This document shows, piece after piece, positions 1,278 through 55,089 of a DNA stretch of 64,000 nucleotides. Made by a program: the position numbers and the translations under genes. The first letter of the stretch is position 1. Each line of letters opens with the position of its first letter. The stretch lies in IMG/VR virus record IMGVR_UViG_3300028586_000764; one strand, given 5' to 3'. The DNA comes from a virus. Its lineage: Duplodnaviria; Heunggongvirae; Uroviricota; Caudoviricetes. The notes beneath the pieces are model-generated. The model did no database searches. It was not told where the DNA came from and worked only from the letters and a program-made list of their open reading frames with translations.

Positions 1278-1320
1278 GCTACACCTCATAGGAAAGAACA
1301 ACTTTTTTAAAAGGACACAA
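1278..1320 (+). promoter_or_regulatory. variant of recurrent upstream element (GCTACAC-N5-AGGAAAGAACAAC, then AAGGACACAAC RBS) for the 1322 gene
   Basis: The sequence is ttGCTACACctcatAGGAAAGAACAACttttttaaAAGGACACAACATG. It belongs to the motif family described in the findings. Confidence 0.4.
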
Positions 1321-1321
1321 C

Positions 1322-2773: not shown

Positions 2774-2794
2774 GGACCAAAAGCTGTATTTTCA

Positions 2795-2818
2795 CTGCCC
2801 TCCTCGGAGGGCAGTTTT
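2795..2818 (+). terminator. rho-independent terminator
   Basis: The hairpin ctgccctcc-tcgg-ggagggcag is followed by TTTTC. Confidence 0.8.
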
Positions 2819-2845
2819 CATTCTAGCCGCCAGACTTGCGCAAAT

Positions 2846-2877
2846 GAAAAACCCGCCAGACTTGCGTCTGACGGGTT
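2846..2877 (-). terminator. rho-independent terminator of the flotillin operon
   Basis: The minus strand reads cccgtcagac-gcaa-gtctggcggg followed by TTTTT. Confidence 0.8.
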
Positions 2878-2917
2878 GGAATGGATTGGTGAGCCGTGTG
2901 GGCCTCACCTGTAGTGC

Positions 2918-19336: not shown

Positions 19337-21838
19337 ATGAAACTCGCAAATAGCCACGCTTCCGGAAATATCGTTGCCAGTGAGGGCATTCAGACCACGA
19401 GCGCGTTCGGCATCGCCCGCACGCCGCACATGTTCAACATCCTCTCCAGCGGCCTGTATTCCGATAAGATTGCGGCGGTACTACGCGAAATTAGCTGTAA
19501 CGCGATGGACGCCCACATCATGGGCGGTACTCCCGACAGACCTTTCCAGGTAAAGCTGCCAACGTCGCTCGACCGTTCCTTCCACGTGAAGGATTGGGGC
19601 CCAGGCCTGAACGACCAGGAGGTGCGCGAACTGTACACCACCTATGGCTGGTCGAGTAAGCAAAACAGTGACGACGTTACCGGTGCCTTCGGCCTGGGCT
19701 CGAAATCGCCGTTTGCGTACACGACGCAAAACGAAGAAGACAGCGATGGCTTCACCATCGTCTCGACAAAAGATGGCTTCAAGCGCATCTACACCTGCCA
19801 CATCGGTGAAGATGGTGCGCCGGCTATCAGCCGCCTGCACGAAGGCCCGGCCGACGCCGACTGGCCGCATGGCGTGATGGTCACCTTCCCGGTGCAGACG
19901 CGCGATATCGCTGAATTCCATCAGAAAGCCGTGGAAATCTATCAGTGGTTCCGCATCAAGCCGGAAATGCTCGGCCTGAATGGCCAGCTGTCGGCGCCCG
20001 AGTTCGACTTCCAGGGTTCGTTCTTCTCGATGAAACGCAAAGACAACGGTTCCGACCGTGGCGCTAGCGTCATCACCGGCAACGTGCGCTACCCCATCGA
20101 ACAGAGCCGCCTGGGCAGCCTGACGCCTATCGAAGAAGCGTTGCTGACGTCGAGCATCCACATGCACTTGCCAATCGGCCAAGTCATGATGACGCCGTCG
20201 CGTGAAACGCTGCAGTACACCGAGCAGACCAAGAGCAACCTGAAGCGACACCTCGCGGCCGCGGCCAACGAAGTTGCTGAACGCGTGCGTGAATACGTGA
20301 TGACGCCGGAGCCGACCCGATGGGCATGGTTCAAGAAGATTCACTCGTACCACGCATCCCTGCCTCACGGCATTCAGTATCGTATCGAGAAGTTCCTGGA
20401 AGCTGCCGGCGTGCCTGAAGAAGAAATCAAGATGGTGTCGCAAGCGGTGAAAGAGAACACCATCGAAGTACCCGGCTGGGTCGGCGATGGCATCGGCGGT
20501 CCGGCCGTGGAGTTCGAGTTCAACGAAGACGGCACGTACAAGCGTGACGCTCAGGGCATGCGTGTTGTGGTGCCGCGAGAACACAACTTCGGCGCCCGTG
20601 TCTATCTGTACGGATATGACAAGGCTCGTGATGCCGTCAGCCGCCGTGAGTTCATCAACGGCCGTGTGGCCAAAGGTGGCGACAAGCATGGCCGCGTGCA
20701 GCTGAGTTTCCTGTCGAGCATCCACGTGTACTACGCGGACGACAAACTGGCTGACCAGCGCGTGCGCGCGGCGGTGCGTGATGGCGAATGCAACTACGCA
20801 ATGTTGGTCACACCTTGTAAAGGCACGCCTCAAGCATATGCGGCAGAGTACGCCGCACGTCTCGTGGGCAAAAAAGGCCTGGACGGTGTACCCTCGTTCG
20901 GCGTCTCCACACTGGAGATTCCGAGTGCGGTCGAAGAAGCGCGTGAGCGTCGCCGTCGTTTCAAGGAACTGGGCCCACGCGCTACCTTTGCAGACCACGA
21001 AGTGCACTACCTGAGCCTGAACGGCAACATGGCCCGCACCACCCTGGGCGAACTGGAGGACAGCGACCTGTTCTACATGACGGCTACCAAGCTCAACGAA
21101 ATTCGTAAAGGCACTGTTCGCAACAAAGCCGACACGTACGACCACAGCTTCCCCGGCAGCTATCTCGGCGAAGTCGTGCGCAGTATCCGCATCATCGTAG
21201 AGGAACTGGGCTTGCCGGTCTCCGGAATGGTGTTGATGCCAACGGAAGGCGCTGCCCGCCGACTGAAACTGCCGGAACAGGGCTTCAAGCCCTTCCTGCC
21301 GTATTTCGTCGGGGAGCTGAAGGCCAACCGTACGCGCTGGGAAGCACTGACCGCGACGGTCGACCGTACACCACGTGTGGACATGTCGTCGCAGTACAGC
21401 GCCAAGCAGTATGGCTGGCTCGGTACGCTGGGTCATGAGATGCATCGCAACAGCGAGTTCTGGCAGCACTTCGAGGCCGAATTCTCGACCTCGCCGGTAA
21501 CGCATGCCGTTCGGGAATTCGTCAAGAACTCGGACAGCAGCAAGGAAAAGGAGGCAGTGCCGGCCAATCCTGTGTTGCAGGCACTGCAGCTGGTGGCCAC
21601 TCACCTGACCAATCACGGTCTGCCTGAAACGTCGGTGAAGCCGCTGTCGTACTACCAAGTGCGCAACGTGTTCGAGGAGATGGCACCTAGCTTCGAGATT
21701 ATCAACCAGGACGCCATGTGCAACTGGATGCGCGACAGTGACAACCATGAGCACGCCCTGTCGACGTTCCGCATGGTTCTGCAGCTGGACGGGCTGACGG
21801 ACGAAACGAGCGGTCGCACGCTTCGCCTCGTCGCATAA
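19337..21838 (+). CDS. rIIA: rIIA-like protein (N-terminal GHKL/Hsp90-like ATPase domain)
   Basis: FNILSSGLYSDKIAAVLREISCNAMDAH...KDWGPGLND...GAFGLGSKSPFAYTT aligns with T4 rIIA [28 protein letters not shown]...RDFGPGMSD...GGFGLGSKSPFSYTD. Confidence 0.9.
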   Translation: MKLANSHASGNIVASEGIQTTSAFGIARTPHMFNILSSGLYSDKIAAVLREISCNAMDAHIMGGTPDRPFQVKLPTSLDRSFHVKDWGPGLNDQEVRELYTTYGWSSKQNSDDVTGAFGLGSKSPFAYTTQNEEDSDGFTIVSTKDGFKRIYTCHIGEDGAPAISRLHEGPADADWPHGVMVTFPVQTRDIAEFHQKAVEIYQWFRIKPEMLGLNGQLSAPEFDFQGSFFSMKRKDNGSDRGASVITGNVRYPIEQSRLGSLTPIEEALLTSSIHMHLPIGQVMMTPSRETLQYTEQTKSNLKRHLAAAANEVAERVREYVMTPEPTRWAWFKKIHSYHASLPHGIQYRIEKFLEAAGVPEEEIKMVSQAVKENTIEVPGWVGDGIGGPAVEFEFNEDGTYKRDAQGMRVVVPREHNFGARVYLYGYDKARDAVSRREFINGRVAKGGDKHGRVQLSFLSSIHVYYADDKLADQRVRAAVRDGECNYAMLVTPCKGTPQAYAAEYAARLVGKKGLDGVPSFGVSTLEIPSAVEEARERRRRFKELGPRATFADHEVHYLSLNGNMARTTLGELEDSDLFYMTATKLNEIRKGTVRNKADTYDHSFPGSYLGEVVRSIRIIVEELGLPVSGMVLMPTEGAARRLKLPEQGFKPFLPYFVGELKANRTRWEALTATVDRTPRVDMSSQYSAKQYGWLGTLGHEMHRNSEFWQHFEAEFSTSPVTHAVREFVKNSDSSKEKEAVPANPVLQALQLVATHLTNHGLPETSVKPLSYYQVRNVFEEMAPSFEIINQDAMCNWMRDSDNHEHALSTFRMVLQLDGLTDETSGRTLRLVA

Positions 21839-21858
21839 CGAAACTACCGCAATTCTTC

Positions 21859-21887
21859 AGCCCCGGGGACTTCCTCGGGGCTTTTTT
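21859..21887 (+). terminator. rho-independent terminator
   Basis: The hairpin gccccg-gggacttcct-cggggc is followed by TTTTTT. Confidence 0.85.
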
Positions 21888-21952
21888 CGTCGCACGAGTC
21901 GTCAGCACCCTGCATTTTAGAAGGAATCCAGGCGCTGCATGTAAATCTCGTT

Positions 21953-21994
21953 GCTATAGGTTAAGCGGGACTGTACTGGCCCCGCTAGGCACAT
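21953..21994 (+). promoter_or_regulatory. variant upstream element (GCTATAG ... AGGCACAT) for rIIB
   Basis: The sequence is ttGCTATAGgttaagcgggactgtactggccccgctAGGCACATttcAAGGAGaagaatcaATG. Confidence 0.35.
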
Positions 21995-22011
21995 TTCAAG
22001 GAGAAGAATCA

Positions 22012-23151
22012 ATGAGCTATATCCGCACCCTCGGTGGTATTCACATGGTCATCGACGGCAAGCCCATCGCGGTTGCCCAAAGTGACAAGCATTTCCAATC
22101 GGTCCTCGAGGCGCTCAAGCGCAAAGCGACGGATGCGGAAATTCTCGACATTCTCGACTCCGAGAAACGTCGCATGGAAGCCGCGGTGCAGGTCGCGCCG
22201 GGTATCGAAATCAAAGGCGGACAGCTGTACTACCAGAACGAGCCGGTTGCCGGCGTGCTGGGCGAGCGCATGATGCAGATGGTCGATGAAGGCTTCGACC
22301 TGACGCCAATGGCAGCCTTCCTGCGAAACCTGATGGAAAACCCGTCCAAGCGCGTGGTCGACCACCTGTACGGTTTCCTGGAATACGGCAAGAACGCCAT
22401 CACCGAAGACGGCTGCTTCCTGGCTTACAAGGCGGTTACCGCCGAATACAAGGACATCTACACCGAAACGTTCGACAACTCGGTCGGTCAGGTCGTCAAG
22501 ATGCCACGCAACCGCGTCAACGAAGACCCTAACCAGACCTGCAGCGACGGCCTGCACGTGTGCAGCTTCGAGTACCTGGATTCGGCGTATGCCCGCAACA
22601 GCGGCCACGTGATGATTTGCAAAATCAATCCGGCCCACGTCGTTGCAGTCCCGACGGACTACAACAACACCAAGATGCGCGTGTGCGAATACGAAGTCAT
22701 GGGTGAGCACGTCGACTACTACCAAAGCAAGAACGACACGCTGTCGGCAACCTCGGTGGCCACCAGCACCAACTCGAACTTCCGCGTCGACGTCGACTAT
22801 GGCAGCGGCTATGGCCATGAAGACGACTTTGAACGCCTGTCGGAAGCTGCGGACCACATGGAATCGCTGCTGGACCGTGACGACGTCAAATCGGTGCGCG
22901 TGGTCAACATCAAGACGGACGCTGTGGTGGACGAGCAGGACAACCCTGACTACGACGATGGCGAAGGCAGCGACGACGACGAGTCGTACACCATCTTCGG
23001 CATCCAGTCGGGTGGCGGTCGCATCCAACTGGAAGATGGCTTCGACAGCGTCAACGATGCTGTCATGGAAGCACTGGAATACGAGAACGGCGTCTACGTC
23101 CGTATCGAAATCGTCGACCAGGACGACAAGGTCGTCAAGACCCTGAGCTGA
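22012..23151 (+). CDS. rIIB: rIIB-like protein
   Basis: IKGGQLYYQN...MENPSKRVVDHLYGFL...ITEDGCFLAYKAV...TFDNSVGQVVKMPRNRVNEDPNQTCSDGLHVCS...KMRVCEYEV aligns with T4 rIIB. The C-terminal half is acidic. Confidence 0.9.
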   Translation: MSYIRTLGGIHMVIDGKPIAVAQSDKHFQSVLEALKRKATDAEILDILDSEKRRMEAAVQVAPGIEIKGGQLYYQNEPVAGVLGERMMQMVDEGFDLTPMAAFLRNLMENPSKRVVDHLYGFLEYGKNAITEDGCFLAYKAVTAEYKDIYTETFDNSVGQVVKMPRNRVNEDPNQTCSDGLHVCSFEYLDSAYARNSGHVMICKINPAHVVAVPTDYNNTKMRVCEYEVMGEHVDYYQSKNDTLSATSVATSTNSNFRVDVDYGSGYGHEDDFERLSEAADHMESLLDRDDVKSVRVVNIKTDAVVDEQDNPDYDDGEGSDDDESYTIFGIQSGGGRIQLEDGFDSVNDAVMEALEYENGVYVRIEIVDQDDKVVKTLS

Positions 23152-31719: not shown

Positions 31720-31739
31720 GCTATAGGTGAGAGGACATG
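31720..31739 (+). promoter_or_regulatory. recurrent upstream element (GCTATAG-N5-AGGACATG) for DNA polymerase
   Basis: The sequence is ctaGCTATAGgtgagAGGACATGgg, about 55 nt upstream of 31793. Confidence 0.45.
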
Positions 31740-31792
31740 GGACGTGGATATACGTCCTTTCAATTTTTAGCAACGAGAGGAGATTTACCTTT

Positions 31793-34700
31793 ATGCAACT
31801 CGGATTCGATTTGGTCTATACCGACCCGAACACGCACGAAATCGTGCCTTGGGCAATGCCTGACACGAAGCTGTTTGCCCGTATCGAAGCGGCACCATGG
31901 AAAGTGGTCGACGTGGAGACTACCGGCCTGAATCCTGCAAGCAAGGAACAGAAGTTCTCCGGCAAGGAACTGCGTCGGGGTATCAACCCGGTGCTGCGCC
32001 TACGCATTCTGTCGGTGCTGTACCCGATGATTGGTACGGCCAAAGGCTACGACGTCGTCGCTTTCGACTTCGACCAGATGACCCAGAAGGAACGTGAACA
32101 AGCGGCTACGGCTTCGATGAACAATGTCGTCATCGCACACAACGCCGGCTTCGACGCGTACTGGATTCGCCAGTTCACGAAAGTGACGCCGAAGCTGTTG
32201 CTGGACTCGATGCTGATGGCCCGCGTGCTGCGCCCTGAACACCCGCTGGTCATGGCGCGCATCTGCAACGACGAGAACGAGGACCCGGACATCAAGGCGG
32301 AAGCCGAAGCGATGTTCATGCAGGGCCGCTCGGGCTGGTCGCTTGCCGACCTGTCGGTAGGCGTTCTGCGTCGTATTCTGCCTAAGGGCCTGCAAGGTCC
32401 TAAAAACTGGGCAGAGCCGTTCCTGACGCAAGCGAACTACAACTACGCCACCGATGACGTCCGGGTGCTGCACGACCTGCTGCTGGACCTGTTCGAAATC
32501 GACAGTTGTGACCAGCTGCTGGAGCGCTACTATGAGCTGCGCGCAGAGAATCGCGTGCTGCGCATCATTGAGCCCCAGGTGCTGGACATCGTGATGATGC
32601 GGGAACACGGCATGCCGTGGGACCAAGCTGAAGCTGCGAAGTACATCGAAGTCCAGTGGGACAAGGTGCGTCAGTTTGCAAAGCGCATGGTGGAACTCGA
32701 ACCGGCCCTGGCCAAGTTCGAGCGCGACCTGGGCGATGCCGGCAAAGGCATTACGGCCAACCTCAAAACCGCTATCGGCGAAGCATTTGCCGCCCGCGGC
32801 CTCGAGCTGGAGATGACGGAGAAATCCAACACCTTCAAGATTGGCGAGAAAGACTTGCGTCGTGCTCGCGCACAGGTCAGCGACGATGCCCGGGAACTGT
32901 TTGACACCTGGGTCGGCCTGAACCGTGCAAAGAAAGCTGGCGGTATGGCCATGGAAGTGACGGGCTACGCGGTACGCTCTCCTCAACGGGATAGCCGTCT
33001 GCATCCGAACACGGGCCACGGTCCGGTGACGGGCCGTCTGTCGTCATCCGAGCCGAACTGCTTCACCGGCGACACCGAAATCCTCACGCTTCAAGGCTGG
33101 GTGCGTTTCGACGAGCTGGACGATGATGCCAAAGTCGCGCAGTACGTCGACGGCCGTATCGAGTTCGTGAGCACGCTCGACGTGATTCGCGAAGACTGGG
33201 AAGGCACCCTGGTGCACAACCAGACCTCGAGCACTGACCTGCTGACGACGCCGATGCACCGCTGCCTGCTGATTGACCCCGTGTCGAAAAAGCAACGCGT
33301 GGTGATGGCCGAGGACTATCCGGAAGGCTATCGCCAGCTGCACGGCGGTATGTACGCGGGCGGCGAAGGCTTGGGCGTGAACGAAGCAGAACTGCGCTTC
33401 CTCGTCATGGGCCACGCTGCCGGCAGCTGGGAAGAAGACGGTTCGTTCACGCTGCGCTTCTCGCGTGCGCGTAAAGCAGAACGTTTCCTGAAGCTGTTTG
33501 CCAACCTGGACCCGATGGCCAACGTGCTGTCGACCGATGCACGCAGCTTCCGTTTCGGACCGACGCACGAACTCACCGAGCTGGCTGAGCTGTACCTGGG
33601 ACACGACTACGAATTCGGTTTCGGCGAATGGGTATTCTCCCTGAGCCGTGAGCAAATCGAGGTGTTCTTCGACGAGCTGACCCGTACGGATGCGACCCAC
33701 GCGAAGCCGACCAAGGCCTATCGTGCCCAGTATGTGGCTACTCGCAAGAGCGACGCAGACATGGTTCAAGCCCTGTATGCGGTGTCGGGTGCAATGGCCC
33801 GCGTGCAGTCGAATCTGGACAAGAAGACCGGAGAACAAACCTGGACCGTCAAGGCGGTGCAACGCGACTACACGTTCACCACTAACCGCACGCAAGAGCT
33901 CAAGCCTTACAAGGGCAAGGTTTACTGCGTGACGGTGCCGAGCAGCTTTATCGTGGTTCGCCACGGTGACAGCCTGCCGATGGTGACGGGTCAGTGCCAG
34001 CAGTTCCCGCGTGACCAGGGCTTCCGTAACTGTGTGATGGCGCCGGAAGGCTACAAAATCATGGCATCGGACTATTCCGCACTGGACATGCGTGTGGGTG
34101 CTGCACTGGCAATTCGTGCGCAGCGACATATCTTCGAGGCGTACATGGGCGACCGGGCAGTACATCCGGACGCAGCACGTGTGATTGCCCGGGTGTATGA
34201 AGGCAAGATTTCGATGGAAGCCGCTCGCGCCGAGGAAGCTCGTGCCGTTAAGGCCTTCGGTGACTGGAAAGCTCGTCGTGAAGACGTCGCTGACGCAATG
34301 GACGCTCGCAAGCGTTACTGGGAAGAGTACCGCAAACGTGCTCGCACCCAGCTGCTCGCCGGCTTCCAGCGCTGCCTGAAGGAAGTTCGACTGAAGGCCG
34401 ACTCCGAGGGCACCTCGGAGTGGGGTTCGCTGCGCGATGCGTTCAACATCGAAGGCATGGACATCCACACCTGGACCGCGCTGGGCATGGTGGGTGAAGA
34501 CCCGAAAGCGCTGTTCTCGGGCCTGTCCGGAGAAGACGTCGCCAAGTCGCTCAAAGAGTGGAAGAAGAAGCTCGGCGACAAGCGTCAAACCGGTAAGGTC
34601 GGTAACTTGTCGCTGCTGTATGCGATGAAGACCCAGGGCCTGATGGATGCTGCAGCTAAAAACTACAACATCCACTGGACTTACGAGGAAGCCGACAAGG

Positions 34701-35149
34701 TGCGCAACGATTGGCTGGCCGCTTACGTCGAAATCGACCTGTGGCACAAGTGGACCGAGCTCAACCCGGCAGAACAAGTGTATGTGCCAGACTTCGACCG
34801 CGGCGGCAAGTTCGCCAAGAAAGAGGTTTACGCATCGTACACGCTGGGTGACCGCCTCATCTACGCCTTCGGCCTGAACGCTGCTCTGTCGTACGAGGAC
34901 CAATCGACCGGCGCTGACATTCTGGGCCTGGTGATGCAAACGCTGCGGGAGTTCCATCCGGACATCTTCGATAGCGTCATCAACCAGGTGCACGATGAAT
35001 TGGTGTTCATGCTGCCTGACGAGAAAGTCGAGGAATGGACCGAGATTGTTCAGCGGGTCATGACTGAGTGCGCTGAGCACTTCCTGATGCAGTTCGGCGT
35101 GCGTGGTGAATGCTCTCCGGCTACGGGTCAGGTCTGGCTCAAGGACTGA
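31793..35149 (+). CDS. family-A DNA polymerase with N-terminal 3'-5' exonuclease domain, interrupted by an intein
   Basis: The exonuclease motifs are VVDVETTG, VIAHNAGFDAYW and YATDDVRVLHDL. The polymerase motifs are RLSSSEPN|intein|CQQFPRD, DYSALDMR (A), KRQTGKVGNLSLLYAM (B) and VHDELVF (C). There is a GAGGAG RBS. Confidence 0.95.
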   Translation: MQLGFDLVYTDPNTHEIVPWAMPDTKLFARIEAAPWKVVDVETTGLNPASKEQKFSGKELRRGINPVLRLRILSVLYPMIGTAKGYDVVAFDFDQMTQKEREQAATASMNNVVIAHNAGFDAYWIRQFTKVTPKLLLDSMLMARVLRPEHPLVMARICNDENEDPDIKAEAEAMFMQGRSGWSLADLSVGVLRRILPKGLQGPKNWAEPFLTQANYNYATDDVRVLHDLLLDLFEIDSCDQLLERYYELRAENRVLRIIEPQVLDIVMMREHGMPWDQAEAAKYIEVQWDKVRQFAKRMVELEPALAKFERDLGDAGKGITANLKTAIGEAFAARGLELEMTEKSNTFKIGEKDLRRARAQVSDDARELFDTWVGLNRAKKAGGMAMEVTGYAVRSPQRDSRLHPNTGHGPVTGRLSSSEPNCFTGDTEILTLQGWVRFDELDDDAKVAQYVDGRIEFVSTLDVIREDWEGTLVHNQTSSTDLLTTPMHRCLLIDPVSKKQRVVMAEDYPEGYRQLHGGMYAGGEGLGVNEAELRFLVMGHAAGSWEEDGSFTLRFSRARKAERFLKLFANLDPMANVLSTDARSFRFGPTHELTELAELYLGHDYEFGFGEWVFSLSREQIEVFFDELTRTDATHAKPTKAYRAQYVATRKSDADMVQALYAVSGAMARVQSNLDKKTGEQTWTVKAVQRDYTFTTNRTQELKPYKGKVYCVTVPSSFIVVRHGDSLPMVTGQCQQFPRDQGFRNCVMAPEGYKIMASDYSALDMRVGAALAIRAQRHIFEAYMGDRAVHPDAARVIARVYEGKISMEAARAEEARAVKAFGDWKARREDVADAMDARKRYWEEYRKRARTQLLAGFQRCLKEVRLKADSEGTSEWGSLRDAFNIEGMDIHTWTALGMVGEDPKALFSGLSGEDVAKSLKEWKKKLGDKRQTGKVGNLSLLYAMKTQGLMDAAAKNYNIHWTYEEADKVRNDWLAAYVEIDLWHKWTELNPAEQVYVPDFDRGGKFAKKEVYASYTLGDRLIYAFGLNAALSYEDQSTGADILGLVMQTLREFHPDIFDSVINQVHDELVFMLPDEKVEEWTEIVQRVMTECAEHFLMQFGVRGECSPATGQVWLKD
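33059..33994 (+). other. intein (312 aa) inserted in polymerase motif between SSSEPN and CQQFPRD
   Basis: The intein starts CFTGDTEILT and ends ...VVRHGDSLPMVTGQ before +1 Cys. Degenerate LAGLIDADG-like segments are present (LVMGHAAGSWEEDGSF). It is in-frame with both exteins. Confidence 0.75.
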
Positions 35150-35205
35150 CACAACTGGATTGGCAGGTGGCCCTTCGGCTTCCTGCTCAACACCCTGCTT
35201 TATTG

Positions 35206-35233
35206 GCCTGCGGATTTTTCCGCAGGCTTTTTC
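35206..35233 (+). terminator. rho-independent terminator
   Basis: The hairpin gcctgcgga-ttttt-ccgcaggc is followed by TTTTTC. Confidence 0.85.
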
Positions 35234-35347
35234 TTTGGCGGAGTCAAAACACGGTCCCACTGTCCGACCGCTAAACAGCGCGGCTACACGCTGACAGTGC
35301 CCGGCATAGTGCCGGGGTTTTTCCTGACAGTTCAAGAGGCTCCGCTA

Positions 35348-41251: not shown

Positions 41252-42670
41252 TTAACGCCTGACCTTACGCAGACCTGCAGCGGTGGTGACCGGGGTGATG
41301 ATACGGTTGGTTTCCGGTTCCAGAGGGTCACCGTACACCGGCAGGTGACCGGTGATGCCGTATTCCGGGTGGGTGACCCACAGAGCTTGCTGAGCACGCT
41401 CCCACTCGAAGTTCATCTTGTAGACCCATTCGTCGTAACCCTTCAGGGAGCCGTTGACGATGACGTTGGCCACGTTGCCGTACTTGTGGAAGTGACCGCA
41501 GACCATGTAGTCGAAACCACCGGCGCCGCTCTTGACCGCGCGTTGTTGCTTGCGGTGAGCCACTTTCATCATTGCCGGCCAGAAGCCGCCAAGACCACCA
41601 CCACCGCCAATCTGGTCACCGTGGGTGAGCAGGTAGCGGGTGCTGTACAGGTTGAACGGCAGGTCCAGCGCGGTCGAGATGTCGAATTCCACGTTGCACT
41701 TGTCGCCCAGGCGGCCACGCACCAGCATGGCGACCATGTTGTACAGCAGCCAGTCGTAGTTGTCCTTGACGGCAAACTTCGCGGTCGGCTTGCGGTCGAT
41801 ACGACCGTGGTTACCCACGACGCCGGCCACATAAAGCCACGGGAACTCTTTCGCCATCACCACCAGGTTCTGGGCCAGCTTTTCAGCCAGGCTCAGCAGG
41901 CAGTCATGAATCGGCGCATCGTTGGTGATACGCAGTTCTTCGTGAATATTGCCCGAGAACATGTCACCACCCAGCAGAACGGCCATGCCGTCGTAGGTCT
42001 GGCCCGATTGACGCTGATGCAGCAGCTGCAGCGTGGTCGAGAACACACGGTCAGCGCGACGGTTCGCGATTTCCAGGTTGAACTCGTTCAGGCCTTCGAT
42101 TTGGTCCGGGTCCACGACCTCGCCCCAGTGCCAGTCCGACAGCATCAGGGTGGGGATACCCGCGAGGGCTTCCTTCTTCGATGCCTTGGTGCGGTCGAAC
42201 TTCAGCGGCGCACCGGTTGGCTTGATGCGGAAAGCATCCGCCATCTGGTTGATGAGGCCTGCCATGGCCAGGTCGGCTGCGCTTTCGTCGCGGGCCGCCT
42301 TCAGCTGGCGTTCCAGGTCCTTGACCTTGCGGTTCATGATTTGAACTTGCGAAGCGTCACGTTCGGTCGAGCGAACCTTCTTCTTCATTTCGCTGATGCG
42401 AACACCGATTGCCAGTTCCGAGGAACGACCGGCTTTCAGCTTCATGGCTTCGCCGTCGTTTTCCAGCAGGCCGGCGTCGTTCAGCTCTGCGAGCTGGTCT
42501 TCGTCCAGGAAGTTTTCAACTTCTGCCTGCTTAATCCACAGAATGTTGGTACCAGCTTCGTCGGTGTCGTCGATGATGACGGCGCCCGAGGACCAACGCG
42601 TGACGTTCTCGCCTTGTGCTTCCAGTGCTTCTTGCAGCGACAGCAGAATTGGGGAGAGAGTGTTCTTCAT
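41252..42670 (-). CDS. SbcD/Mre11-like calcineurin-type metallophosphoesterase with N-terminal coiled-coil extension
   Basis: The motifs are LSDWHWGE (I), GGDMFSG (II), GNHGR (III) and GHFHK (V). The first roughly 170 aa are coiled-coil. The start at 42670 has an AAAGGAA RBS. Confidence 0.8.
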   Translation of the reverse strand: MKNTLSPILLSLQEALEAQGENVTRWSSGAVIIDDTDEAGTNILWIKQAEVENFLDEDQLAELNDAGLLENDGEAMKLKAGRSSELAIGVRISEMKKKVRSTERDASQVQIMNRKVKDLERQLKAARDESAADLAMAGLINQMADAFRIKPTGAPLKFDRTKASKKEALAGIPTLMLSDWHWGEVVDPDQIEGLNEFNLEIANRRADRVFSTTLQLLHQRQSGQTYDGMAVLLGGDMFSGNIHEELRITNDAPIHDCLLSLAEKLAQNLVVMAKEFPWLYVAGVVGNHGRIDRKPTAKFAVKDNYDWLLYNMVAMLVRGRLGDKCNVEFDISTALDLPFNLYSTRYLLTHGDQIGGGGGLGGFWPAMMKVAHRKQQRAVKSGAGGFDYMVCGHFHKYGNVANVIVNGSLKGYDEWVYKMNFEWERAQQALWVTHPEYGITGHLPVYGDPLEPETNRIITPVTTAAGLRKVRR

Positions 42671-42960
42671 TGCAATTTCCTTTTCGTAGACCCGTTGAAA
42701 CAAACGTTTCGTATTTGAATTCTCAAAATTCAACGGGCATGGTGTTAACTTTTTTGTGTCCTGGAGGGCCCTGCAGAGTCTGCGGGGGCTACCGGCCAAC
42801 GTTCCTATGGCTTGGCGCCGATAACTCTTCATATAGCAACTGCCTTTCCATTTTTGGGAACACGTTTTCGGCTGAAGGAGGACGAGCGCCGACCGCCGGC
42901 GAAGGCCCGCGGCAGGAGGTTTTTAGAAGAACTAGCGGAAATTGTGAAAGAAAGCGTCTT

Positions 42961-48323: not shown

Positions 48324-48389
48324 GAGTCTTTCCTTTCACAATCGCGAAGGTTCCGAGCTCCCAATACGTATTGGGTCCGGAATGCGGTG

Positions 48390-50724
48390 GTGGGTAGGAG
48401 CACTGTCTCGCGACAAACACTCCCCCCTATAAACCGTACGTGCGAGTTTCCCCGCATACGGCTTCAATCAACGGAAAGTCGGGCGGGCCCGACCGGCAAT
48501 AGAAACTTGAAACCTGTGGCATGGCCCCTCGTGTGACAGAGGGGGTGAAGTAGAGCGAGGTTTTCCGAGGTGTTGGGACCCTTATCGACCCGGCGAACCA
48601 GGTGATGAGTGTGCCAACGAGTAAGCCTCGTGATAGCCTCGGCACAGACGGGGCAAAGCCCTTTCTGTCGCCTCCACAAATACAGCAGCCGGCGTCGGCC
48701 TTGAAGATTGTTCTCCATTTGCACGGAGAATCGCTCCTCGAAGTAGGTTTCGAACGCTGGGTTGAACGGTTGAGCCTCCTCTCGAATCTTCACATGGCGA
48801 CGGATGACCGTCTCCAGTGCGTATCTCAAGGTTAGCAGTTTCCGTTCACCATTCTTCTGTATTTCCGTGGTGCTGAAGCGGAAGGTACGGGCGCCGACAG
48901 GTTTGAAGTACCTGGAGAGTATCCAGGGCCTCGACTTGTTCGGATGCCGTCTCTTCGCCCAGCGCCAAAGCGCTTGCCATATTTCTTTGTCGACGTTGTT
49001 GTAAGTGTCTTTCGACACCACGTGCTGATGGTAGTTAGCCCAGCCCCGAATCTTTGGATTCAAGACCTTAATCAGCAGACTTTGTGGCGACGTACGATGT
49101 TTCCGTATTGTCGTCCTGACCGCGTCGAGGAACGTTTTCACGTTCTTCTTGGCCGGCTTGATGAGCAGTTTTTCCTTAGATGTACCATGGTGGTACTTCC
49201 GGACGTTCTGCCCCAGGAAGTCAAAGCCTGTTCCAACGTGGGTCACCTTAGTCTTCTCCTCGGAGAGGGTCAGACCTCGGCTTGCCAGGAAGTCGCGCAC
49301 GAGCGGTTTGACCTTGTCTTCGAGCAGCTCTTTCGAGCTACCCGTGATGACGAAGTCGTCCGCGTACCGGACCACTTGAACTTGTGACTTGGCGGCGATA
49401 TGATGCTTGACGCGCTTCAGACCGTGGGAACGACCGAAGTGTTCAATCAGCAAATCTTCCAGCCCGTCGAGAGCCAAGTTGGCCAAGATGGGAGAGATGA
49501 GTCCCCCTTGTGGCGTACCTTCCGTTGTTGGATACAACGAACCTTTGTCGACAAACCCCGCCTTCAGCCATTTTTCCAACACGCTAGTGTCGGTGCAGAT
49601 GTTTTTCAACATCCAGCCGTGACTGATATGGTCGAAGCAACCCTTGATATCGCCTTCTAACACCCATGCCGCGGATTTCTTGTGCGAGAGGAGTGAGAAG
49701 AGTTTGGCGATAGCGTCCGCGGTCGAGCGTGCAGGTCGGAACCCGTAGCTGTTCCAGTCGGCCGTGGTCTCCGAGACGGGTTCCAGCGCCAGCGCGTGCA
49801 GAGCCTGCATTGCGCGGTCCTTCATCGTCGGGATTCCCAGGGGACGTTTCTTTCCATTGGCTTTGGGGATGTACACGCGTCGTAGCGGTTTCGGCTGGTA
49901 GCCTTTGCGCACGAGCGTCCCAATAGCTTTTGCTTTGGCCTGCGGAGAGTCCCAGGTTACCCCGTCGACTCCCGCAGTCCGTTTGCCTTGATTTTCAGTT
50001 ACTCGTCGAACTGCCAAGGCTTTGGCAGAATACGAGTGCGTCAGCAACCATTGCAGGGCTTTCACCTTGCGCCAGTGCTTCAGCTCAGTTGCCTTCGCGA
50101 TGCGTACTTGCAGCTTCCTTACCTCCAGATGACAACGTGCCCAGTCGATGCTGTGCCAGTCGATACCTGTAGTGGGAGCCGCATCCGCACCGAATGCTAC
50201 TTTCGTAGCGTCTAATGCAGTCATTTGCTTGTCCCCCTAAAGAGAAGTTCCGCGAGTTATTTCGCGATGTTGACAAGAACTAAGTCAGCCGGCTTTCACC
50301 GCGGTGCAAAGCACCTATCACACCGATTACAGGTGCGCGTTCGCTTCTTAGTTCATCCTCTACCCTCTAAGCCATGGGCGTTCCTTGCGGTCAGCTTGCT
50401 CGCCTTGCGGAGAGCGACTTATAGGGCTTACCCCGGTCTCGTTGATGCAACACTACTGGGTTAGGTCCCACCTATACACCGTGCGCTTGAATGTCCGTGC
50501 AGTCCCAATTCCTAGGGGATTTGCCAGCGCGTGCCTTTTGGCTTGAGTCTGTCAGCTTTTTTGACTCATTCGCAGTAACGGCGATTATCAGTGGTTCACG
50601 TGAGTTGACCATACCAGTAAGCCTAGTCCTATCCCAGATAAAGCTTCCAGGTTCACTTCGTGCCTCACGGCCCGACTTGTGACACTCTTTCGAGTTTCGG
50701 TACATTGTCCTCCGAGCTTCACAC
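48390..50724 (-). mobile_element. group II intron (ORF-containing, with domain V/VI); boundaries approximate
   Basis: Domain V, GAGCCGTATGCGGGGAAACTCGCACGTACGGTT, lies on the minus strand at about 48416-48450. Domain VI-like GGGGGAGUG...GCUCCUACCC with a bulged UA follows, and the 3' end is at about 48390. The candidate 5' GUGUG is at about 50724. The protein ORF sits in domain IV. Confidence 0.8.
48464..50224 (-). CDS. group II intron-encoded protein: reverse transcriptase / maturase / HNH endonuclease
   Basis: The RT motifs are RPLGIPT and YADDFVI. The maturase domain is RGWANYH. The C-terminal zinc finger/HNH is CPVCAEAI...WHTHHLV...CHTRGH. It ends just before domain V. Confidence 0.9.
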
Positions 50725-50816
50725 CCCGCAGTTACCCGCGACGCATGTCAGAGTAGGCTACTCTCGACGGAACGAGAGGTTTCCCTAACCAAAAAGATGG
50801 CCTGAAACAATTGCAA

Positions 50817-52270: not shown

Positions 52271-54106
52271 ATGAAAAAAATCTCCTCTCTTATCATGGGA
52301 GTCGCGCTCACTGCTTCAAGCCTGTCGGCTGTTGCAGCTCAATACGAAACGCGAATTCTCATCAAAACTCTGAAGGTTACGGGCAGCCCGCAACCTGGCA
52401 CCGGCACGCCGGGAACCGGAACGACGCCTGGCACCGGTGGCACGGGTGGCTCCGGTACAGGAGGCACGGGCGACACGTCTACGCCGTCCTCGAAAGCCGT
52501 GACCCTGACTCCGGGCTCTACGGACTTTGGTGCGCTTCAAGTGGGCGAGACTTCCACCGTCCGCGCTTTCCTGTTGAGCAATCCGGACACCGTCGACAAG
52601 GCGATTTCGGACATTCATGTCAATGGTGCTGACTTCAAACTGTCCGGCAACCAATGCGGCACAACGCTGGCCGCGGGTAGTACCTGCAACATCGGCGTGG
52701 TGATGACTGCCGGCGGCCTGGGAGCCTCCTCGGGCTCGTTGTCGGCAACGGTTGCTGGTCAAGTGCTAACCGCGTCCCTGACGGGCACGGGCAAGTCGGT
52801 TGACGCCGCTCTGCAGGCGTCCCCTGCTTCCGTCGACTTCGGCGCCGGTGTAACTGGCCAATCGTCGGAGGTGAAGACAGTTTCACTTCACAACTCGAAC
52901 GATGTCGCTGTCCAGTTCAGTGGTTTCTCGATGGATAGCGCCACCAAAGCGAATTTCAATGTGGACCCCGCTGGCTGCGGGACCTCGCTTGCAGCTGGTG
53001 CGTCGTGCAACCTGTACGTAATGATGACCCCCTCGCAGGCGGGCGCTCTTTCGGGTAGTATCTCGATTGTCGCGGGCGGTCGTCTAACGAACGTGGCGCT
53101 GAGCGGTAGCGCTGTAGCCGCGACCAAATCCATCGCCAACTCAGGCTGGACCACTTTGACCGCCGAGCCTGGCCGTCCGAGCACTGGCTCTGTTGCCCTC
53201 AGCAACACAGGCAACTCGACAATCCGCCTGGGCGCGATTTCCACCGGAACGCCATACTTCTCGATTACCAGCAATGAATGCGGTACCGAGTTGGCTCCTG
53301 AAGGCTATTGCACGGTCACCGTTCAGTTCTCGCCTAACAAGGCCGGCGACTTCGCGGACACGCTGACCATTGAGAGCGATGCGACAAACAACGCTTCACT
53401 CCAGCTAACGGGTACAGGTATCGCCCCGCAGCCGCACCTGGACCAGATTTCTGGCGGCTACTTCGGCACTCCGTACGTGAACACCACGGACTCGACCACT
53501 GTCGTATTCCAGAACACCGGCCAAGTTCTCACGAAAGTGGGCACCATCAGCTACCAGGGTACTGGCGGCACTACCGCGCCGGCATCCACTGTGTTTAACG
53601 TGACTTCCGACACCTGTACTGGCGCGTCGCTCGCACCAGGTGCTACCTGTAATGTGGTCGTGGCTTTGACCGGTAAGCAAGAACCAACCAGCTATTCGAT
53701 GTCCATCTACCCGAAATACGGTGAGACTGGCACGGAAGCGACGAGCTATGGCTATGTGGGTGGTAATTTCCACTACATGTACACCGCGATGACGGCTACG
53801 AACTTTGGCGGCACGTTCAACTCGACCACCCCGGACAGCACTCCAATTGCGTTCCAGACTTCTGGTGGCACTTCGCAGCGCACCTTCACGCTGACCAGCC
53901 GCGACTCTGCTCCTGGCACCGTGACCGTGGCGAGCTCTAACGCACCTGAGTTTGTCATCAGCTCGAACACCTGCCTTGGTACCCTGGCGCCGAACCGCAG
54001 CTGCACGTTTGTGGTCACCTTCAAATCAGCCGGCTCCGGACAACGCGCTGGCAACATCAACATCGGTGGCGCCACCAAGATGTCAGTCAGCCTGACGGGC
54101 AACTAA
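52271..54106 (+). CDS. large secreted protein built from about 5 Ig-like (choice-of-anchor-D-like/ASH-like) repeats
   Basis: The signal peptide is MKKISSLIMGVALTASSLSAVAAQ. A repeating pattern L.P...FG...VG..S......N.G...I.I..I...G..F......CG..LA.G.SC...V.F.P is present. There is an N-terminal G/T-rich linker. Confidence 0.8.
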   Translation: MKKISSLIMGVALTASSLSAVAAQYETRILIKTLKVTGSPQPGTGTPGTGTTPGTGGTGGSGTGGTGDTSTPSSKAVTLTPGSTDFGALQVGETSTVRAFLLSNPDTVDKAISDIHVNGADFKLSGNQCGTTLAAGSTCNIGVVMTAGGLGASSGSLSATVAGQVLTASLTGTGKSVDAALQASPASVDFGAGVTGQSSEVKTVSLHNSNDVAVQFSGFSMDSATKANFNVDPAGCGTSLAAGASCNLYVMMTPSQAGALSGSISIVAGGRLTNVALSGSAVAATKSIANSGWTTLTAEPGRPSTGSVALSNTGNSTIRLGAISTGTPYFSITSNECGTELAPEGYCTVTVQFSPNKAGDFADTLTIESDATNNASLQLTGTGIAPQPHLDQISGGYFGTPYVNTTDSTTVVFQNTGQVLTKVGTISYQGTGGTTAPASTVFNVTSDTCTGASLAPGATCNVVVALTGKQEPTSYSMSIYPKYGETGTEATSYGYVGGNFHYMYTAMTATNFGGTFNSTTPDSTPIAFQTSGGTSQRTFTLTSRDSAPGTVTVASSNAPEFVISSNTCLGTLAPNRSCTFVVTFKSAGSGQRAGNINIGGATKMSVSLTGN

Positions 54107-54128
54107 GCTAACGCGAGTTGCTTGATGA

Positions 54129-54158
54129 GCCCTGCTTCTACGGAAGCAGGGCTTTTTT
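54129..54158 (+). terminator. rho-independent terminator
   Basis: The hairpin gccctgcttc-tacg-gaagcagggc is followed by TTTTTT. Confidence 0.85.
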
Positions 54159-54308
54159 ATCGGAGTTTCTGTAAAACCTGTCTTTAGGACTACTAGGGCT
54201 TCAATGGTAAGCACAGAACAGGCCGTAGTTTAAAATAGTAGGTCCGGGCTTATAGAGCGCAGGCTCACTGTTTGGGAACTAGGTTAGCCGTATTTTTTAG
54301 AATGGATT

Positions 54309-54337
54309 TTGGCAAATGCTTATCGCTGTGCTATAAT
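54309..54337 (+). promoter_or_regulatory. canonical sigma70 promoter (TTGGCA-N17-TATAAT) for the TerD gene
   Basis: The sequence is TTGGCAaatgcttatcgctgtgcTATAAT. It contrasts with the GCTATAC-type elements elsewhere. Confidence 0.6.
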
Positions 54338-54413
54338 GTGCGCACTCGATGTTCTCAGAAGCATTGAAATAATCCACCTCCCCCGTAAGCCAATTATTCT
54401 AGGAGAAGTACGC

Positions 54414-54989
54414 ATGGCAATCAGTCTGCAAAAAGGCGGCAACGTCAACCTGAGCAAAGAGGCCCCTGGCCTGACCAAACTGACCATCGGCCTCGGCTGG
54501 GACCCGCGCCCGACCGATGGTGCCGCCTTCGACCTGGACGCTTCGGTTTTCGTGCAAAATGCTTCGGGCAAAGTTCGCAGCGACGCCGACTTCATCTTCT
54601 ACAACAACCTCAAATCGGCCGACGGCTCGATTATCCACAACGGGGACAACCGTGACGGCGGCGCCGTCGGCGACGACGAAACCGTCAGCATCGACCTGAG
54701 CAAGGTTCCGGCTGACGTCGACAAGCTGTCGTTCTGCGTTACCATCCACGAAGCAACCGCCCGTAAGCAAAACTTCGGTGGCGTTCCAAAGGCGCACGTG
54801 CGAGCTATCAACGGTGACACGAACGTCGAAGTTGCTCGTTACGACCTGTCGGAAGATAGCTCGACCGAAACTGCGATGATTTTCGGAGAACTGTACCGTA
54901 ACGGCGCAGACTGGAAATTCAAAGCCGTCGGCCAAGGCTTCAATGGCGGCCTGGGCCCGCTGGCACGTTCGTTCGGCGTCAACGTCTGA
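54414..54989 (+). CDS. terD: TerD-family stress protein (TerD/TerE/TerZ-like)
   Basis: There is an [38 protein letters not shown]...FDLDASVF...GDNRDG is typical of TerD. Confidence 0.9.
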
Positions 54990-55089
54990 GCAACTAAGCG
55001 CCCGCGCTAACCAATGCCGGCTAGCATCTGCTAAGCCGGCATTTTCCTATTTAAGGCCCTGCGTCCAACTCACACTTAACGGTTAAATC

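What the first reader, a model, noticed from the sequence alone, without database searches (positions are those of the whole stretch)
33059..33994. DNA polymerase intein inserted inside the SSSxPN(L/C)QxIP motif, ending in Gln instead of Asn
The 312-aa insertion starts with Cys (CFTGDTEI, block A) directly after RLSSSEPN and ends ...HGDSLPMVTGQ before the +1 Cys of CQQFPRD. Excising it restores the conserved family-A motif (SSSEPNCQQFPRD, compared with SSSDPNLQNIP). The C-terminal residue appears to be Gln and not the canonical His-Asn. Only degenerate LAGLIDADG-like segments are visible, suggesting a possibly decayed homing endonuclease. Inteins with C-terminal Gln are rare.
Basis: partly seen in the sequence, partly recalled or inferred. 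Interest (0 to 1): 0.6.

Follow-up and report, generated by a model that had tools for sequence, protein, structure and literature searches.

The report
Gln-ended intein in phage DNA polymerase

Summary
Window 33059-33994 encodes a 312-aa in-frame insertion (CFTGDTEI...MVTGQ) in a family A DNA polymerase. More than 80 insertion-free homologues read SSSEPN|CQQ[FM]PRD without a break, so both boundaries are exact and the last residue is Gln.

The insert is a real two-domain intein, HINT plus LAGLIDADG (AlphaFold pLDDT 90; best PDB matches are endonuclease-containing inteins). It belongs to a very large phage intein family of 4018 representative clusters. Family signature: Cys1, T-x-x-H-R-C in block B, an invariant Cys where standard inteins have Asp (block F position 4), and a Thr-Gly-(Asn/Gln) end.

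Within this family Gln is not rare:
- 61 of 155 close representatives end in Gln.
- 59 of 108 copies at this same polymerase site end in Gln.
- Asn and Gln are interspersed across the tree.

The endonuclease has lost the catalytic Asp of its first motif (QADG to HAAG), so it is probably inactive. The whole intein is still under purifying selection, and every splicing residue is intact.

The most likely mechanism is standard splicing with Gln cyclisation. The invariant block F Cys, and a class 3 intein as the nearest solved relative, leave a hybrid mechanism open. Verdict: a new member of a known kind, of modest interest.

The parts
31793..33058 (+). N-extein of the family A DNA polymerase (3'-5' exonuclease domain and N-terminal part of the polymerase domain), ending ...TGRLSSSEPN. 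The ORF opens at GTG 31727, but homologues start at the Met of MQLGFD (31793).
33059..33994 (+). Intein, 312 aa, from Cys1 (TGC 33059-33061) to Gln312 (CAG 33992-33994).
33059..33097 (+). Block A (CFTGDTEILTLQG). Cys1 is invariant in 155/155 family members.
33236..33274 (+). Block B (DLLTTPMHRCLLI): Thr64 (B:7), His67 (B:10), Arg68 (B:11), Cys69 (B:12).
33344..33868 (+). LAGLIDADG-type homing endonuclease domain (about aa 96-270). It is predicted to fold, but catalytic residues are degenerate.
33392..33430 (+). LAGLIDADG motif 1, degenerate: LRFLVMGHAAGSW against family L.VA.QADGS. The catalytic Asp is kept in 147/155 members and is Ala here.
33662..33697 (+). LAGLIDADG motif 2, partly degenerate: VFFDELTRTDAT against family E...WDG. 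Asp211 is kept. Trp is replaced by Thr (Trp in 151/155) and Gly by Ala.
33917..33964 (+). Block F (KVYCVTVPSSFIVVRH). Cys290 at F:4 (33926-33928) is invariant in 155/155 members, where standard inteins have Asp. Pro294 and Arg301 are nearly invariant.
33974..33994 (+). Block G (LPMVTGQ): Thr310 (G:5), Gly311 (penultimate, G:6), Gln312 (C-terminal, G:7).
33995..33997 (+). Cys+1 (TGC), first C-extein residue. It is native to the polymerase and present in most intein-less homologues.
33995..35149 (+). C-extein (CQQFPRD...), stop codon included. The polymerase motif A (DYSALDMR) lies at 34070-34093, 26 residues after the splice site.

Best explanation
The insert is a splicing-competent intein with a nested LAGLIDADG domain. 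It sits inside the TGRLSS-x-PN|(L/C)-QNIP active-site motif of a phage family A DNA polymerase.

Inferred mechanism (none of these steps is shown here):
1. The gene is translated as a 1118-aa precursor that cannot polymerise.
2. Cys1 forms a thioester at the N-terminal junction, helped by Thr64 and His67.
3. The N-extein is passed to Cys+1.
4. The C-terminal Gln312 cyclises to a glutarimide and releases the intein. With no penultimate His, this step is probably helped by Arg68 (B:11), as in the related AceL NrdHF intein.
5. An S-to-N shift restores SSSEPN-CQQFPRD.

Gln is a normal, selectively maintained alternative to Asn in this intein family. The homing endonuclease of this copy has lost a catalytic Asp and is most likely inactive. 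The intein is therefore an old, vertically inherited resident of this phage lineage and is no longer actively homing.
For: Boundaries and site:
- They are exact against more than 80 intein-less homologues.
- Seven homologues carry an intein at the same site, four ending VTGQ and four ending V[TS]GN when the window is counted.

Family membership:
- An exhaustive HMMER search finds 4018 representatives at E<=1e-3 and 1160 at E<=1e-10. The best 150 align over the full 312 aa.
- All family-invariant splicing residues are present: Cys1 155/155, Thr64 153, His67 155, Arg68 135, Cys290 155, Pro294 152, Gly311 144.
- The AF2 model has pLDDT 90.4 and pTM 0.89. Its best PDB matches are HEN-containing inteins: TliVMA 5.5e-16, PhoVMA, PI-SceI, PI-PfuI.

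Gln is functional and not a lesion:
- It is kept in P0001, P0002 and P0007, across a dS of about 1.
- 61/155 family representatives end in Gln, and 59/108 at this same polymerase site.

Selection and residence time:
- dN/dS of the intein is 0.12-0.26, against 0.05-0.115 for the exteins.
- GC3 of the intein (0.77) matches the exteins (0.72-0.74).

Experimental support from relatives:
- The mycobacteriophage A1-cluster RDF intein splices completely with its native Gly-Asn end, and G316H slows it (PMC5050341). It was tested as Bethlehem gp51. The family profile matches the 317-aa Museum gp52 copy, which has Cys1, a block F Cys and an LTGN|S end, at E 5e-37.
- The AceL NrdHF intein has the same block F/G signature and splices fast without either His (PMC7891396).
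- Native C-terminal Gln supports splicing in the Pab, Pho and Mma PolII inteins and the CIV RNR intein (PMC4031507).

Endonuclease decay:
- QADG has become HAAG, and WDG has become TDA.
- The closest relative with intact motifs is P0133, at 50% identity.
- More distant same-site copies have deletions in this domain.
Against: - No splicing experiment exists for this protein or for any polymerase site-a copy.
- Pfam's Intein_splicing model scores only E 0.09, so the family is divergent from curated inteins.
- The invariant Cys at F:4 and the class 3 nature of the nearest solved relative mean that the first nucleophile is not settled.
- The endonuclease domain evolves under as much constraint as the splicing domain (dN/dS 0.09-0.28). 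A dead domain does not obviously predict this.
- Splicing with Gln is slow in some studied inteins (PMC4031507).
Confidence: 0.72

Rival explanations
1. Class 3-like or hybrid mechanism. The invariant block F Cys290 attacks the N-terminal junction or relays the N-extein (Cys1 to Cys290 to Cys+1), as in class 3 inteins. Cys1 would then be accessory or would act only in the first hand-over.
For: - Cys at F:4 is invariant in 155/155 members, and Thr/Ser at G:5 is present in 141/155. These are two of the three WCT positions (PMC2807308).
- The only significant PDB sequence match of the family profile is the AceL NrdHF intein (6zgq, E 4.9e-7). Its experimentally essential class 3 nucleophile Cys124 aligns with Cys290, and its ...VTGN end aligns with VTGQ (PMC7891396).
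- 6zgq is also the best mini-intein structural match (TM 0.76-0.78 normalised to the target).
- AceL has Ala1, which shows that this lineage can splice through the F:4 Cys alone.
Against: - Cys1 is equally invariant (155/155). Class 3 is defined by the absence of an N-terminal nucleophile, and Trp at B:12 is absent (Cys in 119/155).
- The authors who tested the mycobacteriophage RDF intein grouped penultimate-His-lacking inteins like it under class 1 (PMC5050341).
- No canonical WCT class 3 intein (Msm or Mch DnaB1) was matched by the profile at E<1.
Confidence: 0.18
2. The insert is a dead intein or an unspliced domain insertion. The Gln end and the missing penultimate His would block C-terminal cleavage, so the polymerase is either non-functional (a pseudogene) or works with the insert in place.
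For: Gln, Gly at G:6 and Cys at F:4 all depart from the textbook His-Asn/Asp intein. Pfam recognition is weak. The endonuclease has lost catalytic residues.
Against: - Exteins are under strong purifying selection (dN/dS 0.05-0.115), and the intein is too (0.12-0.26), over a dS of about 1.
- The same departures are the family norm in thousands of clusters, including members shown to splice (PMC5050341, PMC7891396).
- The insertion lies 26 residues before the motif A catalytic Asp, in a strictly conserved motif. A 312-aa insert there is unlikely to be tolerated.
Confidence: 0.06
3. The intein is still mobile. The endonuclease keeps activity despite the Asp-to-Ala change in motif 1, for example as a nickase or with a compensating acidic residue, and still homes into intein-less polymerase alleles.
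For: - The domain is predicted to fold with high confidence.
- dN/dS of the HEN part is 0.09-0.28.
- Asp211 of motif 2, the K-x-R-K-x-x-R segment and Gln237 are kept.
- Intein-less relatives keep an identical 23-nt core at the site.
Against: - Asp at motif 1 is kept in 147/155 family members and is Ala in WIN, P0001 and P0002. Trp210 (151/155), Gln119 (141/155) and Asn232 (134/155) are also replaced.
- In established knowledge of LAGLIDADG enzymes, each motif supplies one metal-binding acidic residue, and loss of either abolishes double-strand cleavage.
- GC3 is fully ameliorated to the host gene.
Confidence: 0.15

Closest known systems
Mycobacteriophage cluster A1 RDF (metallophosphoesterase) intein. 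It was tested as Bethlehem gp51 (Kelley et al. 2016, PMC5050341), and Museum gp52 was read here.
   Same: - It has the same family profile (E 5e-37, full length).
- It has Cys1, a block F Cys (VWCLRVP), a Thr-Gly penultimate pair and a nested LAGLIDADG domain.
- It splices completely with native Gly at the penultimate position, and Gly-to-His slows it.
   Different: - It ends in Asn, with Ser at +1.
- Its host protein and insertion site are different.
- Its endonuclease is active (toxic in E. coli).
- It is only about 23% identical.
AceL NrdHF split intein (PDB 6zgq; Hoffmann et al. 2020, PMC7891396)
   Same: - It is the only solved structure matched significantly by the family profile (E 4.9e-7).
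- It shares the F:4 Cys, the Pro kink in block F, Arg at B:11, and a Thr-Gly-Asn end lacking both helper histidines.
   Different: - It is naturally split, with no nested endonuclease.
- It has Ala1, not Cys1, and is experimentally class 3.
- It has Met at B:12, Asn at the end and Ser at +1.
[quoted passage not shown]
   Same: The last residue is Gln with Cys at +1, and release is by Gln cyclisation. The CIV intein is reported to splice better with Gln than with Asn.
   Different: - The archaeal PolII inteins are unrelated mini-inteins in a family D polymerase, and no significant match was found.
- I could not retrieve the CIV sequence. A sequence recalled from memory found only 58-66% identical metagenomic RNR inteins. 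Those do share the TYCF...TG(Q/N)|C signature, but the CIV link itself is unverified.
Canonical class 3 (WCT) inteins, for example MP-Be DnaB and Msm or Mch DnaB1 (PMC2807308, PMC7664689)
   Same: Cys at F:4 and Thr at G:5, and a proposed phage origin.
   Different: This intein has Cys1, whereas class 3 inteins lack an N-terminal nucleophile. It has Cys, not Trp, at B:12, and Gly, not His, at G:6. The profile finds no sequence match at E<1.

Membership tests
Intein (HINT-domain protein-splicing element) | In-frame insertion in a conserved host-protein site, absent from homologues, whose removal restores the host motif | tested here: met
   More than 80 homologues read SSSEPN-CQQ[FM]PRD uninterrupted. 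The insert has no stop codon.
Intein (HINT-domain protein-splicing element) | Nucleophile at residue 1, TxxH in block B, a cyclisable C-terminal residue (Asn, Gln or Asp) and a nucleophile at +1 | tested here: met
   Cys1, Thr64-x-x-His67, Gln312 and Cys+1 are all present.
Intein (HINT-domain protein-splicing element) | HINT fold | tested here: met
   The AF2 model has pLDDT 90.4. Foldseek matches TliVMA, PhoVMA, PI-SceI, PI-PfuI, hedgehog Hint and mini-inteins. This is a prediction and not a solved structure.
Intein (HINT-domain protein-splicing element) | Actual excision with ligation of the exteins | not testable with these tools
   It is inferred only from purifying selection and from relatives that splice (PMC5050341, PMC7891396).
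Phage Cys1 / Cys-F:4 / Thr-Gly-(Asn|Gln) intein family (informal name; it includes mycobacteriophage RDF, NT and primase inteins, and Staphylococcus phage RNR and NAMPT inteins) | Full-length sequence homology, including the nested endonuclease | tested here: met
   phmmer finds 1160 representatives at E<=1e-10, and the best 150 align over residues 1-312. Cultured-phage members score E 1e-31 to 1e-63 against the family profile.
Phage Cys1 / Cys-F:4 / Thr-Gly-(Asn|Gln) intein family | Signature residues: C1, T(B7), H(B10), R(B11), C(B12), C(F4), P(F8), T/S(G5), G(G6), N/Q(G7) | tested here: met
   All are present in the window copy. Family frequencies out of 155 are 155, 153, 155, 135, 119, 155, 152, 141 and 144, with Asn 94 and Gln 61 at G7.
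Class 1 inteins | N-terminal Cys, Ser or Thr that forms the linear (thio)ester | tested here: inconclusive
   Cys1 is present and invariant. Whether it is the first nucleophile cannot be tested here.
Class 1 inteins | Usual helper residues: Asp at F:4 and His at G:6 (typical, not strictly defining) | tested here: not met
   Cys290 is at F:4 and Gly311 at G:6.
Class 3 (WCT) inteins | No nucleophile at residue 1 | tested here: not met
   Cys1 is present in 155/155 members.
Class 3 (WCT) inteins | Trp B:12 - Cys F:4 - Thr G:5 triplet | tested here: not met
   The triplet here is Cys69 - Cys290 - Thr310, so two of the three positions match and Trp is absent.
Class 3 (WCT) inteins | Block F branched thioester intermediate | not testable with these tools
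   This needs biochemistry (C1A, C290A and Q312A mutants).
Active LAGLIDADG homing endonuclease | Two LAGLIDADG motifs, each with its metal-binding acidic residue | tested here: not met
   In motif 1 the Asp is replaced by Ala (HAAG against QADG, where Asp is kept in 147/155). Motif 2 keeps Asp211 but loses Trp and Gly.
Active LAGLIDADG homing endonuclease | LAGLIDADG alpha-beta-beta-alpha-beta-beta-alpha fold nested between blocks B and F | tested here: met
   The model matches the endonuclease domains of the TliVMA, PI-SceI and PI-PfuI inteins, and I-Tsp061I.

The most novel reading that the evidence does not exclude
This very large phage intein family may be a distinct mechanistic group between class 1 and class 3. 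Both Cys1 and the block F Cys would be obligatory, forming a thioester relay Cys1 to Cys-F:4 to Cys+1. Alternatively, the three or four active-site cysteines could form a redox or metal switch that gates maturation of the polymerase. A C-terminal chemistry without either helper histidine would then let Asn and Gln substitute for each other freely. That would explain why more than half of the copies at this polymerase site end in Gln, and why the state has changed dozens of times even though the switch needs two base changes.
Probability: 0.15. Interest if true: 0.6.

Novelty: new member of a known kind. Interest (0 to 1): 0.33.

Why it matters
For this window the result is an annotation. The polymerase gene is intact and its product is an 806-aa enzyme after splicing. 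The 1140-codon ORF should not be read as a fusion or a pseudogene.

More generally, C-terminal Gln is treated in the literature as a rare intein variant known from a handful of cases. Here it is the majority state at one insertion site of an abundant family of phage polymerase inteins, and it alternates freely with Asn.

The family also has an invariant block F Cys alongside Cys1, and a class 3 intein as its nearest solved relative. That makes it a convenient natural series for testing two questions:
- How is C-terminal cyclisation catalysed without the helper histidines?
- How did class 3 splicing arise?

Fast, traceless, His-independent inteins of this kind are also of practical interest as protein-engineering tools.

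Tried and rejected
- Pfam on the insert alone gave only Intein_splicing at E 0.09. phmmer of the single sequence against PDB gave nothing meaningful. Family recognition needed tblastn, exhaustive HMMER and a profile.
- Megablast of the gene against cultured phages found no match. The spliced polymerase has only weak partial matches, so no named phage can be given as the source.
- The word-indexed protein search with the insert alone returned just 12 hits. It was superseded by the exhaustive search.
- I tried to confirm from memory that the Chilo iridescent virus RNR intein belongs to this family. The recalled sequence retrieved only 58-66% identical metagenomic RNR inteins, none named as iridovirus, and BFVD did not list it in the top 50. 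The CIV link is therefore left unverified. The real RNR inteins retrieved do show TYCF...TG(Q/N)|(C/S), with Gln in 74 of 88.
- Three papers could not be read because they are not held: Amitai 2004, Tori & Perler 2011 and Nicastri 2013. A search for literature on inteins in family A polymerases found nothing relevant.
- I looked for a residue that co-varies with Asn or Gln at the terminus. Only weak signals appeared (maximum MI 0.26 bit), mostly in the C-terminal hairpin.
- The idea of an alternative C-terminus with His-Asn is rejected. Intein-less homologues fix the boundary.
- A split polymerase is rejected, because there is one continuous ORF with no stop codon.
- A second intein of this family in the window is rejected. 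A six-frame profile search finds only this one.
Full report
**1. The observation**

The ORF 31727..35149 (+) encodes 1140 codons. Pfam finds DNA_pol_A (1.2e-21, in two stretches) and the 3'-5' exonuclease domain. Translation of 33059-33994 gives 312 codons without a stop. They run from CFTGDTEILT to VVRHGDSLPMVTGQ, are preceded by RLSSSEPN and are followed by CQQFPRD.

Of the 120 best homologues in a 5.8-billion-protein collection, most are 800-815 aa, and more than 80 read HGPVTGRLSSSEPN-CQQ[FMA]PRD without interruption. This fixes both boundaries to the residue. It also shows that the +1 Cys belongs to the polymerase, and it leaves no room for a different C-terminus with His-Asn. The homologues also show that the real start is the Met of MQLGFD (31793). 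That gives a 1118-aa precursor and an 806-aa spliced enzyme.

The splice site lies 26 residues upstream of the motif A sequence DYSALDMR, so the unspliced precursor should be inactive. This last point is an inference from established knowledge of family A polymerases.

**2. What the insert is**

Seven homologues carry an insertion at the same point. P0001 (96% identical over the whole protein), P0002 and P0007 end in VTGQ. P0076, P0078, P0083 and P0086 end in V(T/S)GN. All have a Cys in block F (VYCVTVP) and Gly as the penultimate residue.

The search results were as follows:
- tblastn against 50,697 phage records finds 406 records at about 23-28% identity over the full length. The matches lie in ribonucleotide reductases, NAMPT, primases, nucleotidyltransferases, phosphoesterases, PhoH and polymerases.
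- An exhaustive HMMER search of 1.84 billion representatives finds 4018 proteins at E<=1e-3 and 1160 at E<=1e-10. The best 150 align from residue 1 to about 305-312, central domain included.
- An AlphaFold model built on a 26-sequence alignment (A1) has pLDDT 90.4 and pTM 0.89.
- The best PDB matches of that model are endonuclease-containing inteins: TliVMA (5.5e-16), PhoVMA, PI-SceI and PI-PfuI. Hedgehog Hint, BIL domains and mini-inteins follow.
- BFVD gives 225 viral proteins at E<=1e-3, many annotated as Hint or DOD homing endonuclease.

The insert is therefore a bona fide two-domain intein.

**3. The family signature and the Gln**

In 155 family copies taken from the best hits, the key positions are conserved as follows:

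| Position | Residue | Count out of 155 |
|---|---|---|
| 1 | Cys | 155 |
| B:7 | Thr | 153 |
| B:10 | His | 155 |
| B:11 | Arg | 135 |
| B:12 | Cys | 119 |
| F:4 | Cys | 155 |
| block F | Pro294 | 152 |
| block F | Arg301 | 152 |
| G:5 | Thr or Ser | 141 |
| G:6 (penultimate) | Gly | 144 |

The C-terminal residue is Asn in 94 copies and Gln in 61. No Asp, Glu, His or Lys was seen at that position.

Sorting the copies by their flanks shows that 108 of the 155 sit in family A polymerases at exactly this site (xPN|[C/S/T]-Q-N). There, Gln (59) outnumbers Asn (49). Two neighbouring sites in the same motif are occupied by the same family but end only in Asn: LQN|x with 16 copies and QNI|x with 11 copies. 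Of 20 copies in other hosts, 18 end in Asn.

Several results indicate that Asn and Gln are interchangeable:
- On a neighbour-joining tree built without the last two residues, at least 35 Asn/Gln changes are needed. Shuffled tip states need a mean of 48 and a minimum of 40.
- Pairs of copies with the same end are no more similar to each other than pairs with different ends (0.368 against 0.366).
- No alignment column co-varies strongly with the state (maximum 0.26 bit).

A second, related group of real metagenomic RNR inteins ends in TG(Q/N)|(C/S), with Gln in 74 of 88, and also has TYCF in block F.

So 'C-terminal Gln is rare' is true of the classical literature. There it is known from the Pab, Pho and Mma PolII inteins and the CIV RNR intein (PMC4031507, PMC8175363). 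It is not true of this intein's own family.

**4. Is it functional?**

- All family-invariant splicing residues are intact in the window copy.
- Between the window and P0002, where dS is about 0.7-1.1, dN/dS is 0.09-0.115 for the exteins and 0.26 for the intein. Within the intein it is 0.20 for the N-terminal splicing part, 0.28 for the endonuclease part and 0.30 for the C-terminal splicing part.
- Against P0001 the intein gives 0.12.
- GC3 of the intein (0.77) equals that of the exteins (0.72-0.74).

The Gln has thus been kept through long divergence in a gene under strong constraint. That argues it supports splicing.

Two relatives have been tested by others:
- The mycobacteriophage RDF intein was tested as Bethlehem gp51. 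The Museum gp52 copy read here is 317 aa, has Cys1 and VWCLRVP, and ends LTGN|S (E 5e-37 to the family profile). The tested intein splices completely, and replacing its penultimate Gly with His slows it (PMC5050341).
- The AceL NrdHF intein splices in minutes without either helper histidine. Its Arg at B:11 contacts the C-terminal scissile carbonyl, and a Gly-to-His change abolishes activity (PMC7891396). The window copy has the equivalent Arg68.

**5. The endonuclease**

The family motifs are L.VA.QADGS and E...WDG. The changes in the window copy are:
- Motif 1 reads LVMGHAAGS, so the Asp kept in 147/155 copies is Ala here, and the Gln kept in 141/155 is His.
- Motif 2 reads ELTRTDAT. Asp211 is kept, but the Trp kept in 151/155 is Thr and the Gly is Ala.
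- The Asn kept in 134/155 at position 232 is Asp.

P0001 and P0002 share the loss. The closest relative with intact motifs, P0133 (50% identical, same polymerase clade), ends in ITGN. More distant same-site copies have deletions of 50-80 residues in this domain.

From established knowledge of LAGLIDADG enzymes, each motif contributes one metal-binding acidic residue. This copy is therefore most likely unable to make a double-strand cut. The domain is nevertheless predicted to fold and is not evolving neutrally. Possible reasons are that it must fold for the splicing domain to assemble, or that it keeps DNA binding. This remains unexplained.

Intein-less relatives keep an identical 23-nt core around the site, TCCGAGCCGAAC|TGCCAGCAGTT.

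**6. Mechanism**

The best-supported reading is canonical four-step splicing: a Cys1 thioester, transfer to Cys+1, Gln312 cyclisation to a glutarimide, and an S-to-N shift.

The main rival is a class 3-like or relay mechanism through Cys290. A profile of the family matches only one solved protein significantly, the AceL NrdHF intein (6zgq, E 4.9e-7). In that alignment its essential class 3 nucleophile Cys124 falls on Cys290, and its VTGN end falls on VTGQ. It is also the best mini-intein structural match.

AceL has Ala1 and an M-C-T triplet, and it is experimentally class 3 (PMC7891396). The window intein has a C-C-T triplet plus Cys1. It therefore fails two defining features of class 3, which are the lack of an N-terminal nucleophile and Trp at B:12 (PMC2807308). 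It also lacks the Asp at F:4 that is typical of class 1. Which cysteine attacks first cannot be decided by sequence.

**7. Context**

The window looks like part of a large lytic-type phage genome:
- It has rIIA-like and rIIB-like genes and an exonuclease.
- Syntenic loci from metagenomes carry rIIB, dUTPase, T5orf172 and adenosine deaminase genes.
- There is no close cultured relative.
- Only one intein of this family is present in the 64 kb.

**8. Verdict**

It is a new member of a known kind: a phage intein of the Cys1 / Cys-F:4 / Thr-Gly-(Asn|Gln) family, at a polymerase site I could not find described in the searchable literature but which is abundant in metagenomes.

Its Gln terminus is typical of its family. 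The features of more general interest belong to the family as a whole, not to this copy:
- the free alternation of Asn and Gln despite a two-step codon path;
- the joint invariance of Cys1 and the block F Cys;
- the kinship with an atypical class 3 intein.

Noticed in passing
window 48389-50779 (- strand): A complete group II intron. Rfam matches the D1-D4 model at 50626-50779 (113 bits) and the domain 5/6 model at 48389-48466 (58 bits). Between them lies a reverse transcriptase / maturase / HNH ORF at 48464..50224. The interrupted host gene was not identified. The phage region therefore carries a second kind of self-splicing mobile element besides the intein.
   Followed up: partly
family A polymerase motif TGRLSS-x-PN-L-QNIP (window 33041-33058 and 33995-34009; related proteins P0133-P0281): The motif is an intein hot spot. 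Three adjacent insertion points are occupied by the same intein family: PN|x with 108 representatives, LQN|x with 16 and QNI|x with 11. A Gln terminus occurs only at the first.
   Followed up: yes
window 19337-23151 (+), 41252-42832 (-): There are rIIA-like and rIIB-like genes and a phage exonuclease. The window appears to come from a large lytic-type phage with no close cultured relative. The spliced polymerase matches cultured phages at only 24-48% identity over at most 26% of its length.
   Followed up: partly
L003 / L004 (homologous locus of P0002): The syntenic polymerase locus of the 81%-identical homologue lies on metagenomic contigs of 846 kb, and the longest contig recorded is 1.46 Mb. 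This could be a prophage in a bacterial chromosome, a chimeric assembly or a very large phage. Other homologues are named from Variovorax, Paraburkholderia and Agitococcus assemblies.
   Followed up: no
window 1322-4651, 52271-56394: Several genes here are unusual for a phage replication region: a PEP-utilising mobile-domain protein, a flotillin/SPFH protein, a 611-aa protein with Ig-like (HYDIN/ASH) repeats, and a TerD plus vWA (TerF-like) protein.
   Followed up: no
window 33044-35335 (- strand): [quoted passage not shown] It is most likely an artefact of high GC3 on the coding strand and not a gene.
   Followed up: no
window 31727-31793: The mechanical ORF starts at GTG 31727, but all close homologues begin at the Met of MQLGFD (31793). 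The first 22 codons are probably not translated.
   Followed up: partly
window 1-64000: ARAGORN finds no tRNA or tmRNA gene in the 64 kb.
   Followed up: yes
L006 (Escherichia phage VB-EcoM-WM, DNA polymerase CDS 488-3886): A cultured coliphage polymerase carries an intein of the same family at a different site (GDAH|C ... VCGN|CNNAKAY), with an HNH endonuclease gene just downstream.
   Followed up: partly
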